From contig CP147778.1 in the NCBI GenBank assembly GCA_037305845.1, positions 1,152,001 through 1,216,000 on the forward strand: 64,000 bases of DNA, in the 5' to 3' direction. The DNA is from Candidatus Freyarchaeum deiterrae (GTDB taxonomy: Archaea > Asgardarchaeota > Jordiarchaeia > Jordiarchaeales > Jordiarchaeaceae). Below, one piece after another: positions 75-7,058 of the stretch (its first letter is position 1; the number at the start of each line of letters is the position of its first letter). The notes below the pieces were generated by a model. That model saw only the letters and a list, made by a program, of their open reading frames with translations, was not told the origin of the DNA and searched no databases. Both the position numbers and the translations under genes were made by a program.

Positions 75-707
75 ATGGTCGAAGAACAAAAAATAGTAAG
101 AAAAACAGACCCAAAATTCATAGAAGAAATAATCGAATACGGATCAAAATACTTCACAAAAGAAGAAATGGAAAGACTAAGAGCATGTATCCAGTGCGGC
201 ACATGCGTTTCCGGTTGCCCTTCAGGCCGTAGAACTGCTTGGCGTATTAAGAAAATCTTTAGACGGGCTCAGCTGGGGTTGAAGGAAGATGCTCTGAAAG
301 ACGAAGGGCTCTGGGACTGTACCACGTGTTTCACGTGCCAAGAAATCAGAGCTTAGGTTTATTATTACTTACTCTGACTTGAAAGATGTCCCAGAAAGGT
401 GCCTACTACTGATGTTGTTCGTGTGATTCGTAATATTGCTTTTAGGAATGGTATTGCTAATCCGAAGCATTTGGCTACTTGTGGTTATCTTTTCAGGTTT
501 GGTCATGGTGTTCCGATTAATGATGATACTAAGGCGGTTAGGAAGAAGATTGGTTTGGATGAACTTCCTGCTACGGTTCATAAGTATCCTGAGGGTTTGA
601 AAGAGGTTAATACGATAGTTGAGGAAACTGGGTTTAAGAAAGTGGTTGACGACGCTCAGAAAGAGGCTCAACAGAAGGAGGCTCAGAAGAAAGATGAAAA
701 GAAGTAG
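75..707 (+). CDS. hdrC: Heterodisulfide reductase subunit C; two exons (75-344 + 384-707, 197 aa after splicing) separated by a 39-nt BHB intron
   Basis: First motif CIQCGTCVSGCPSGRRT. The second motif WDCTTCFTCQE|RCPRKV is split across ORFs 75-356 and 399-707, which are in the same frame. GHGVPIND motif in the C-terminal part. Directly upstream of and overlapping hdrB. Confidence 0.92.
345..383 (+). other. Putative bulge-helix-bulge (archaeal tRNA-type) intron in hdrC mRNA
   Basis: Central helix CAAG(339-342):CUUG(378-381); 3-nt bulges AAA(343-345) and AAA(382-384); inner helix UCAGAG(346-351):CUCUGA(372-377). In-frame TAG(354) and TGA(375). Removal yields TGC CAA GAA|AGA TGT CCC. Confidence 0.85.
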
Positions 708-2915: not shown

Positions 2916-3404
2916 CTGGGAAAAATAAGACCTTCTTATATTAAAAGGATTGCAAAAACCCTAGCTGAAAAATTTCCGAACGTCTTCACCAGTAACTTTG
3001 ATGATGATAAGAAGCTCGTAAGTAAGTACACAAATGTAGAATCCAAAAAAGTTCGAAACAGAATAGCAGGCTATGTTGCAAGCATCGTGAAGTTCAGCCA
3101 ATATGAATACGTAGCTCCAGAGGAAGAGGAACTTCCAGAAGATTACACAGAATATGACTTTACCAGAAGAAAAGAAGCAAAAGAAGAAGCAGAAGAAGAG
3201 GCTGAAGAAGAAGTCTTAGAAGAAGCAGAAGAAGAAGAGATTATTGAAGAGGTAGCTGAAGAAGAAACTGGAAAGAAGAAGAAAGAGAAAACAAAGAAGG
3301 AAAAACCTGAGAAGAAAGAGAAAACAAAGAAGGAAAAACCTGAGAAGAAAGAGAAAACAAAGAAGGAAAAACCTGAGAAGAAAGAGAAAACAAAGAAGAA
3401 GTGA
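2916..3404 (+). CDS. rps17e: 30S ribosomal protein eS17 (S17e) with acidic and Lys-rich C-terminal extension; probable CTG start
   Basis: The frame upstream of ORF 3087 reads (M)GKIRPSYIKRIAKTLAEKFPNVFTSNFDDDKKLVSKYTNVESKKVRNRIAGYV, the S17e signature. SD GGAGGTG at 2902-2908. No in-frame ATG/GTG/TTG back to the TAA at 2856. Confidence 0.92.
   Translation: MGKIRPSYIKRIAKTLAEKFPNVFTSNFDDDKKLVSKYTNVESKKVRNRIAGYVASIVKFSQYEYVAPEEEELPEDYTEYDFTRRKEAKEEAEEEAEEEVLEEAEEEEIIEEVAEEETGKKKKEKTKKEKPEKKEKTKKEKPEKKEKTKKEKPEKKEKTKKK
3278..3398 (+). repeat. 33-bp tandem repeat (3 full copies + partial) encoding KKEKTKKEKPE
   Basis: gaagaaagagaaaacaaagaaggaaaaacctga starting at 3278, 3311 and 3344, partial copy at 3377. 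Confidence 0.95.
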
Positions 3405-6751: not shown

Positions 6752-7058
6752 ATTGGGAAACGTTCTCCGATAACCCTCAGATCCATAGTTTATGGCAGCT
6801 TGGTGGGTGTACTATACATTTTTCTTGCAGTGTATGTGAGTCTTACAACAGGTGTGATTTTTATTTGGGGGATTACTATACTGGGATGCATACTCCTCTC
6901 AGTACGGGGGAGGTATAATCCCGAGGAAAAACGTGGTATTAAGTTCAATAGTAGACGGAACAGTTTGTGTATCCGCAGGCGTAGTTGCAGGTTTACCAGC
7001 CGTTGTTATTTTTGCGGGTAGAACCCTGTTTTACAGTGCCGAGTTTATTTTTTGTTAA
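6752..7058 (+). pseudogene. Frameshifted, truncated N-terminal remnant of an OPT-family oligopeptide transporter
   Basis: ITLRSIVYGSLVGVLYIFLAVYVSLTTG...YNPEE; removing one A from the A5 run at 6927-6931 continues NVVLSSIVDGTVCVSAGVVAGLPAVVIF, which resembles the OPT N-terminus. No canonical start, and it runs into the 3' end of the HAD gene. Confidence 0.55.

What the first reader, a model, noticed from the sequence alone, without database searches (positions are those of the whole stretch)
333..395. Canonical bulge-helix-bulge intron inside the hdrC protein-coding gene
Seen in sequence: a 39-nt insert with two in-frame stops (TAG 354, TGA 375) splits the second Fe-S motif CTTCFTCQE/RCP. The RNA forms an inner helix UCAGAG(346-351):CUCUGA(372-377), extendable by UAGGU(354-358):ACUUA(367-371); bulge AAA(343-345); a 4-bp central helix CAAG(339-342):CUUG(378-381); and bulge AAA(382-384). 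The exon-exon helix is either C338:G385 plus ACGU(333-336):AUGU(386-389), or UCUGGGAC(310-317):GUCCCAGA(388-395). Established: archaeal EndA cuts after the 2nd nucleotide of each bulge and RtcB ligates. Applied here the cuts are 344/345 and 383/384, giving CAA GAA|AGA UGU CCC and an intact 197-aa HdrC. The classic mRNA example is crenarchaeal cbf5. Inference: this is a tRNA-type mRNA intron in an energy-metabolism gene of a probable Asgard archaeon. Pipelines would call it a pseudogene. It is relevant to the origin of endonuclease/ligase mRNA splicing (compare HAC1/XBP1).
Basis: partly seen in the sequence, partly recalled or inferred. Interest (0 to 1): 0.95.

Follow-up and report, generated by a model that had tools for sequence, protein, structure and literature searches.

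The report
tRNA-type intron in Asgard hdrC mRNA
A 39-base insert breaks a core energy-metabolism gene of an Asgard archaeon and has the shape that the tRNA-splicing enzymes cut; it is one of at least 16 such inserts in 14 protein genes of this genome, so this close relative of eukaryotes very probably splices many messenger RNAs, although the spliced RNA has not yet been seen.

Summary
Observation confirmed. The 39-nt insert (345-383) has two in-frame stops. Bulge-helix-bulge (BHB) cuts restore a 197-aa HdrC collinear with intron-less orthologues. One correction: the motif is relaxed, because the exon helix next to the 3' bulge does not form. The insert is identical in four independent assemblies. 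Six other sequence-distinct alleles carry a 30- or 39-nt insert at the same junction; one, from another family, has three compensatory pairs in the central helix. Both exons are under purifying selection (dN/dS 0.09-0.17). The genome (size fits the published Freyarchaeia genome) encodes an (αβ)2-type EndA and RtcB. A homology-first census plus a direct cbf5 check found 16 gene-breaking BHB inserts in 14 genes, including single-copy rtcB, cbf5, ahcY and rps26e (mirror control 1/12 versus 9/12). Best reading: EndA/RtcB mRNA splicing (0.87). Ribosomal bypassing is the main rival. In the papers I could search, splicing inside an archaeal coding sequence is shown only for cbf5. This scan has already found such introns on other DNA, including a 30-nt hdrC intron in another Jordarchaeia genome.

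The parts
75..344 (+). hdrC exon 1 (90 codons; first CxxCxxCxxxCP motif and three Cys of the second)
   Evidence: collinear with orthologues and with solved HdrC chains via orthologue P0020
345..383 (+). 39-nt BHB intron, phase 0, with in-frame stops TAG 354-356 and TGA 375-377
   Evidence: identical in four Logan assemblies; no similar copy elsewhere in the genome
384..707 (+). hdrC exon 2 (107 codons, starts RCP; supplies the eighth Fe-S cysteine)
339..342 (+). 5' strand of the central 4-bp helix (CAAG, exonic)
   Evidence: pair probability 0.96; three pairs changed on both sides in G005
343..345 (+). 5' bulge AAA; predicted cut 344/345
   Evidence: unpaired probability 0.99; cut position from the established EndA rule
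346..377 (+). intron hairpin: 346-351:372-377 and 354-358:367-371, 8-nt loop
   Evidence: changes in the second 39-nt allele keep the pairing
378..381 (+). 3' strand of the central helix (CUUG, intronic)
382..384 (+). 3' bulge AAA, part of an unpaired 382-387 junction strand; predicted cut 383/384
323..337 (+). exonic side hairpin CACGUG:CACGUG; codons near-frozen in intron-bearing alleles
310..317 (+). 5' strand of the exon-exon outer helix
   Evidence: the pairing codons are kept in intron-bearing alleles only
388..395 (+). 3' strand of the exon-exon outer helix
694..1593 (+). hdrB, intact (299 aa); its ATG overlaps the end of hdrC exon 2
   Evidence: TIGR03288 above cut-off; called at 299 aa in Logan contigs; overlap seen

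Best explanation
The insert is an intron of the archaeal tRNA type inside the hdrC mRNA. The pre-mRNA folds into a relaxed bulge-helix-bulge (predicted). The heteromeric (αβ)2 splicing endonuclease cuts after A344 and A383, and RtcB joins the exons (inferred from the established rule for tRNA and cbf5 introns). The product encodes full HdrC for the neighbouring MvhADG-HdrABC complex, whereas unspliced RNA gives a 93-aa stub lacking the eighth Fe-S cysteine (shown from sequence). It is one of at least 16 such introns in 14 protein genes of this genome. The intron plus about 50 nt of flanking exon behaves as one block that is gained or lost between species, most likely by homologous recombination (inferred). 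No regulatory role is needed to explain it; tolerance by a broad-specificity enzyme is enough.
For: (1) The BHB cut sites coincide with the junction defined independently by intron-less orthologues. (2) Six other alleles have an insert at the same junction in two lengths, all with stops and the motif; the central helix is paired in 7/7, with three double changes in G005. (3) Silent sites at codons -10..-1 differ in 12% of comparisons among intron-bearing alleles but 47% among intron-less ones, which fits selection on RNA structure. (4) dN/dS is 0.09-0.17, hdrB and hdrA are intact, and mvhD-G-A lie next door. (5) The EndA alpha subunit is closest to the Aeropyrum enzyme, with Tyr-His-Lys and the extra loop, and a second non-catalytic subunit and RtcB are present. 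(6) Positive control: this genome's cbf5 carries a 32-nt BHB insert inside the catalytic Asp codon, where splicing is proven in Crenarchaeota (PMC2738675). (7) In the homology-first census, 9 of 12 well-anchored gene-breaking inserts of at most 70 nt have strict BHB geometry, against 1 of 12 for the mirror geometry and 1 of 240 for open in-frame insertions. (8) Single-copy rtcB, cbf5, ahcY, fbp, rps26e and the Obg/YchF GTPase are interrupted, and rtcB is interrupted in all six genomes of the genus.
Against: No spliced RNA was seen. The junction was absent from JGI contigs, and no full-length product of this allele is in the protein collection; both are weak tests. The 3' bulge is not closed by an adjacent helix in the predicted ensemble. 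The compensatory changes come from a single divergent allele. GAA codons at both ends also allow a ribosomal hop. The census favours inserts with conserved flanks, and it covered about 1.9 of 3.58 Mb.
Confidence: 0.87

Rival explanations
1. Programmed ribosomal bypassing, as in T4 gene 60: the ribosome leaves GAA 342-344, slides over the hairpin and lands on GAA 381-383. The mRNA is never cut.
For: Matched GAA codons flank the insert and give the same protein. In the 30-nt alleles of the genus a UAG follows the take-off codon directly, inside a hairpin.
Against: The G005 allele at the same junction ends in UAA, not GAA. In G000 three sense codons precede the stop. 12 of the 16 inserts in this genome have no matched-codon hop that gives the same protein, while all keep at least 3 of 4 central pairs. 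Bypassing does not explain the exon-intron central helix and its compensatory changes.
Confidence: 0.04
2. EndA cuts the motif but ligation is rare, so the element mainly destroys or damps the mRNA, and little HdrC is made from this allele.
For: No spliced product was found. rtcB itself is interrupted.
Against: Purifying selection acts on both exons. Hdr genes are reported among the most transcribed metabolic genes in these genomes (PMC11291895). The cuts restore the frame exactly in all 16 cases.
Confidence: 0.03
3. No RNA processing: the insert is removed at DNA level in part of the population, or intact copies are supplied by intron-less alleles.
For: Intron-less alleles exist in sister species. 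For alba, a copy about 99.6% identical to G009 and lacking exactly the intron occurs in a run that also yields 13-kb contigs. There is a 4-nt direct repeat at the ends.
Against: All four Logan contigs of this allele that were read hold the insert. Direct repeats are 0-2 nt in 12 of 16 inserts. Intron-less hdrC alleles differ at many silent sites around the junction, so they are not simple excision products.
Confidence: 0.02
4. hdrC is a pseudogene or a split gene (93 aa plus 102 aa) broken by a small insertion, and the BHB shape is chance.
For: Two in-frame stops; gene callers annotate two fragments; distant HdrC-like paralogues at 24-33% identity exist.
Against: dN/dS is about 0.12 among intron-bearing alleles. 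A chance motif arose in 48 of 200,000 shuffles. The site is shared across two families. A split reading loses the RCP cysteine. Single-copy core genes are broken in the same way.
Confidence: 0.015
5. Stop-codon readthrough gives HdrC with a 10-13-residue loop inside the Fe-S motif.
For: All hdrC inserts are multiples of three. One gene caller read the related alba insert with TAG as Gln.
Against: Two different stops (TAG and TGA) lie in this insert, and TAA in G005. The loop would break a CxxCxxCxxxCP spacing that is unbroken in all 77 metagenome homologues with the motif. 13 of the 16 inserts shift the frame.
Confidence: 0.015
6. Assembly or sequencing artefact.
For: The genome is a metagenome assembly.
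Against: The same 121 bases are in four separately assembled runs, and related inserts occur in other species.
Confidence: 0.005

Closest known systems
cbf5 pre-mRNA intron of Crenarchaeota (Watanabe 2002; Yoshinari 2006; Yokobori 2009, PMC2738675)
   Same: Short BHB-bounded insert in a coding sequence, cut after the second bulge base, often an unconventional BHB, in hosts with a hetero-oligomeric EndA, inside a functionally critical motif, with patchy gain and loss.
   Different: The host gene is an Fe-S subunit of an energy complex. The intron is phase 0, and the host is an Asgard archaeon. It is one of at least 16 introns in 14 genes rather than the only one. Splicing is not shown here.
BHB intron in the 5' UTR of Haloferax HVO_1309 (PMC7714728)
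   Same: An mRNA substrate of the archaeal splicing endonuclease.
   Different: It lies in an untranslated region and does not break a reading frame.
tRNA introns of Freyarchaeia and Atabeyarchaeia (PMC11291895; bioRxiv 10.64898/2026.10.13.758758)
   Same: The same motif, repeated gains, and in PMC11291895 the same lineage and probably this genome (92-95% of tRNAs interrupted).
   Different: Those papers treat tRNA genes; term searches in their main text found no report of introns in protein genes.
IRE1-dependent splicing of HAC1/XBP1 mRNA (own knowledge; PMC13149111)
   Same: Spliceosome-independent removal of an mRNA intron by a protein nuclease and a tRNA ligase (RtcB in animals).
   Different: IRE1 is unrelated to EndA, recognises two stem-loops rather than a BHB, and is stress-regulated. 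No regulation is shown here. This is an analogy, not homology of the nuclease.
T4 gene 60 translational bypass (own knowledge)
   Same: Matched codons, a stop and a hairpin in the skipped stretch.
   Different: Matched codons are not kept across alleles or across the other inserts.

Membership tests
EndA-spliced BHB mRNA intron (cbf5 type) | 4-bp central helix with a 3-nt bulge 3' of it on the 5' strand, closed by an intron helix | tested here: met
   (pair probability 0.96-0.99)
EndA-spliced BHB mRNA intron (cbf5 type) | second 3-nt bulge closed directly by an exon-exon helix (strict hBHBh') | tested here: inconclusive
   C338:G385 can pair but has probability 0.0; an 8-bp outer helix forms further out. 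Unconventional BHBs are the rule for cbf5 introns (PMC2738675).
EndA-spliced BHB mRNA intron (cbf5 type) | cuts after the second base of each bulge restore the homologous reading frame | tested here: met
EndA-spliced BHB mRNA intron (cbf5 type) | motif kept while the intron sequence varies across relatives | tested here: met
   7 alleles, 2 lengths; three compensatory pairs, all from one allele
EndA-spliced BHB mRNA intron (cbf5 type) | broad-specificity hetero-oligomeric splicing endonuclease in the genome | tested here: met
   two EndA genes; alpha closest to A. pernix 3p1z, E 8e-43. Specificity is inferred from homology.
EndA-spliced BHB mRNA intron (cbf5 type) | RtcB ligase in the genome | tested here: met
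   single copy, itself carrying a 29-nt relaxed BHB insert
EndA-spliced BHB mRNA intron (cbf5 type) | spliced mRNA or excised intron observed | not testable with these tools
EndA-spliced BHB mRNA intron (cbf5 type) | cleavage by EndA in vitro | not testable with these tools
   bench experiment
Translational bypass element (T4 gene 60 type) | matched take-off and landing codons conserved across alleles | tested here: not met
   GAA/GAA in the genus alleles but GAA/UAA in G005; absent in 12 of 16 inserts
Translational bypass element (T4 gene 60 type) | stop codon directly after the take-off codon | tested here: inconclusive
   not in the two 39-nt alleles or G005; present in the 30-nt alleles of the genus
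Group I, group II or homing-endonuclease intron | ribozyme core or encoded endonuclease or reverse transcriptase | tested here: not met
   39 nt; no Rfam match; no PF14528, PF00961 or PF00078 match in the genome
HdrC (TIGR03290) of MvhADG-HdrABC | two CxxCxxCxxxCP motifs; context with hdrB, hdrA and mvhDGA | tested here: met
   orthologue P0020 (89% identical) passes the cut-off; hdrB passes TIGR03288; hdrA-mvhD-G-A divergent upstream

The most novel reading that the evidence does not exclude
Jordarchaeia (Asgard) run a genome-wide, spliceosome-free mRNA splicing system. EndA and RtcB routinely remove tRNA-type micro-introns from a dozen or more messengers, including those for the ligase itself, a ribosomal protein, Alba and two subunits of one electron-bifurcating complex. 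The introns move between species as recombining blocks with their flanking exon sequence.
Probability: 0.75. Interest if true: 0.88.

Novelty: new variant of a known kind. Interest (0 to 1): 0.76.

Why it matters
In the papers I could search, splicing inside an archaeal coding sequence is demonstrated for one gene family, cbf5. If these inserts are spliced, a lineage close to the ancestor of eukaryotes depends on mRNA splicing for core genes, with transcription and translation in one compartment. That makes questions about early introns testable: how ribosomes are kept off unspliced messages, whether introns are selected to carry stops, and how they spread without a homing enzyme. The rtcB intron means the ligase is needed to make its own message. 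In practice, gene callers now split or truncate these genes, which distorts metabolic reconstructions of Asgard genomes. Metatranscriptomes of these soils are reported (PMC11291895), so the main test is cheap.

Tried and rejected
An exact spliced-junction pattern found nothing in JGI contigs. Searches for a full-length product of this allele found none. A precisely intron-less alba contig (SRR28530378) looked like a spliced transcript, but it extends 365 nt upstream and the run yields 13-kb contigs, so I read it as a genomic allele; the library type is unknown. A homology-free genome scan with a codon model gave only modest excess over the mirror control (for example 17 versus 3 at one setting, 577 versus 516 at the loosest) and was replaced by the homology census. 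BHB-like shapes are common by chance (330 versus 363 mirror at length 39), so shape alone is no evidence. Census hits in low-complexity antisense frames and repeated Fe-S motifs were discarded, as were two that I took, from memory of the sequence, for rRNA introns read antisense. My label 'pduO' was wrong; the gene is nadE. No insert at this junction was found in 77 more distant metagenome homologues. The phylum search showed none by match length outside the class, but loci were not inspected. No source for the intron sequence was found in the genome. No homing endonuclease or reverse transcriptase was found with three Pfam models.

Full report
Observation. The insert and its structure are as described. 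Exon 1 (75-344) ends CTTCFTCQE and exon 2 (384-707) begins RCP. The 39 bases between hold TAG 354 and TGA 375. Removing 345-383 gives a 197-aa protein that aligns without gaps to intron-less orthologues at 81-85% identity. Solved HdrC chains have the same unbroken motif. The central helix and intron hairpin dominate the predicted ensemble, and 48 of 200,000 shuffled inserts match them. The outer helix is 310-317:388-395, so the motif is a relaxed BHB at a three-way junction.

Host and context. The genome is one contig of 3,576,204 bases. Its relatives are labelled Freyarchaeota or Jordarchaeia, and the size fits the complete Freyarchaeia genome of PMC11291895 (3.58 Mbp); the identification is inferred. 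That paper reports introns in 92-95% of tRNA genes and Hdr among the most transcribed metabolic genes, and my term search found no mention of introns in protein genes. hdrB follows, with its start overlapping the hdrC end. hdrA-mvhD-mvhG-mvhA lie divergently upstream. Other HdrC-like genes are only 24-33% identical.

Not an artefact, not decay. The same 121 bases occur in four separately assembled runs. dN/dS against relatives of the genus is 0.09-0.17, with a median of 0.12 among intron-bearing alleles.

Comparative evidence. Four of 11 genomes of the class carry an insert at this junction (G000, G007, G008, G005), as do three further metagenome contigs; a fourth contig ends inside one. One allele has 39 nt of related sequence with changes that keep the stems. 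Four have a 30-nt type. G005, from the other family at about 50% protein identity, has a 30-nt insert whose central helix is AGCG:CGCU, three pairs changed on both sides (1 of 500 shuffles, but all from one allele). Every complete allele contains a stop. Silent sites at codons -12 to +3 are nearly frozen in intron-bearing alleles of the genus and take other codons in intron-less ones. A tree of that flank groups alleles by intron status. A tree of the rest of the gene mixes them and rejects one clade of intron bearers (AU p = 0.0004; two open branches). The simplest reading is that intron plus flank moves as a block by recombination, with selection keeping the exon helices. The direction, gain or loss, is not resolved.

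Machinery. Two EndA genes are present. One has the Tyr-His-Lys residues and the extra loop and is closest to the Aeropyrum (αβ)2 enzyme; the other lacks the His. RtcB is single-copy and carries a 29-nt insert between Asp and Ala of PDAHQGYG. All six genomes of the genus have an insert there and the other family has none. The single cbf5 carries a 32-nt BHB insert after the first base of the catalytic Asp codon, the site of the proven crenarchaeal intron (PMC2738675).

Genome-wide census. I fetched nearly all of G004 and 0.39 Mb of G010 and located breaks in G000 by protein homology alone; about 1.9 Mb was covered. Among gene-breaking inserts of at most 70 nt with both flanks well anchored, 9 of 12 have strict and 11 of 12 relaxed BHB geometry at the homology-defined site. 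The mirror geometry scores 1 and 2 of 12. Open in-frame insertions score 0 of 11 at that threshold and 1 of 240 overall. With cbf5 the hand-checked list is 16 inserts of 20-191 nt in 14 genes: hdrC, mvhD, alba, rtcB, cbf5, ahcY (three), fbp, nadE, moaE, a porA paralogue, an Obg/YchF GTPase, rps26e, an OYE/FadH flavoprotein and one unnamed gene. This is a lower bound. G004 has about eight of its own, mostly at other sites. The alba intron is in 9 of 11 genomes, in four lengths, with a constant central helix.

Mechanism. Shown from sequence: the break, the restoring cuts, conservation, and the enzymes' genes. Predicted: the fold. Inferred from established EndA chemistry: cleavage at 344/345 and 383/384 and ligation by RtcB. 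Unspliced RNA would give a 93-aa stub without the eighth cysteine and might lose coupling to hdrB (inference). All 16 inserts bring a stop within 17 codons of the 5' cut, including the three whose length is a multiple of three. This hints at selection against read-through, but the numbers are small and partly follow from how breaks were defined. The main rival is ribosomal bypassing between the two GAA codons; it fails for G005 and for 12 of 16 inserts.

What is missing. No RNA test was possible. Indirect searches for the spliced junction or protein were blank; these are weak tests.

Prior knowledge. A 2020 paper names cbf5 as the only BHB mRNA intron reported before its own Haloferax 5' UTR case (PMC7714728). 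The 2009 cbf5 paper says introns in other protein genes were predicted but not confirmed. Ten literature searches found no report for hdrC or for Asgard protein genes; the library lacks most subscription journals. Within this scan the idea recurs: other readers noted several of these sites in this genome, and follow-ups describe a 30-nt hdrC intron, a gatE intron, and rtcB and EF-2 introns in other archaea. These are leads, not support.

Verdict. A real feature, very probably an EndA/RtcB-spliced mRNA intron (0.87). It works like the cbf5 intron and meets the testable membership features, with a relaxed outer helix. What is new is the scale and the lineage. Interest 0.76.

Noticed in passing
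L029 (G000:C1 about 1452796-1452824, minus strand); L260-L264: rtcB, the ligase gene, is itself interrupted at PD/AH by a 29-30-nt BHB insert in all six genomes of the genus, and in none of four of the other family.
   Followed up: yes
L266 (G000:C1 about 1483415-1483446, minus strand): cbf5 carries a 32-nt BHB insert inside the catalytic Asp codon, the crenarchaeal site, here in an Asgard genome.
   Followed up: yes
G000:C1 1876203-1877066, minus strand: Single-copy ahcY has three BHB inserts (56, 29 and 191 nt); the long one could be the remnant of a mobile intron.
   Followed up: partly
L267:269-298; L270-L282: The alba intron is in 9 of 11 class genomes (27-40 nt). A contig from SRR28530378 is about 99.6% identical to G009 but lacks exactly the intron; library type unknown.
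   Followed up: partly
L268 about 6985-7015 (G000:C1 1144985-1145015, minus strand): mvhD has a 31-nt BHB insert in the CNWC motif, so two subunits of the same Mvh-Hdr complex would need splicing.
   Followed up: partly
window 75-707: Third codon positions flip from about 5-15% G+T in codons 1-40 to 95-100% in codons 101-160 of hdrC. The cause is unexplained.
   Followed up: partly
L128:5890, L088:5963, L107:16938, L106:6573, L114:12112, L115:16133, L094:5612 (G004): G004 has its own BHB inserts of 29-44 nt at other sites, several in what look like GTPase P-loops (gene names not checked).
   Followed up: no
G000:C1 about 1805170-1806500: Two breaks of 32 and 90 nt that appear to be rRNA introns, picked up through antisense frames (identified from memory only).
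   Followed up: no
window 3087-3404: Short acidic then Lys-rich ORF with a tandem KKEKTKKEKPE repeat.
   Followed up: no
L268:11083-12692: Two tandem Zn-ribbon plus TPR-like genes sit between hdrA and hdrC.
   Followed up: no
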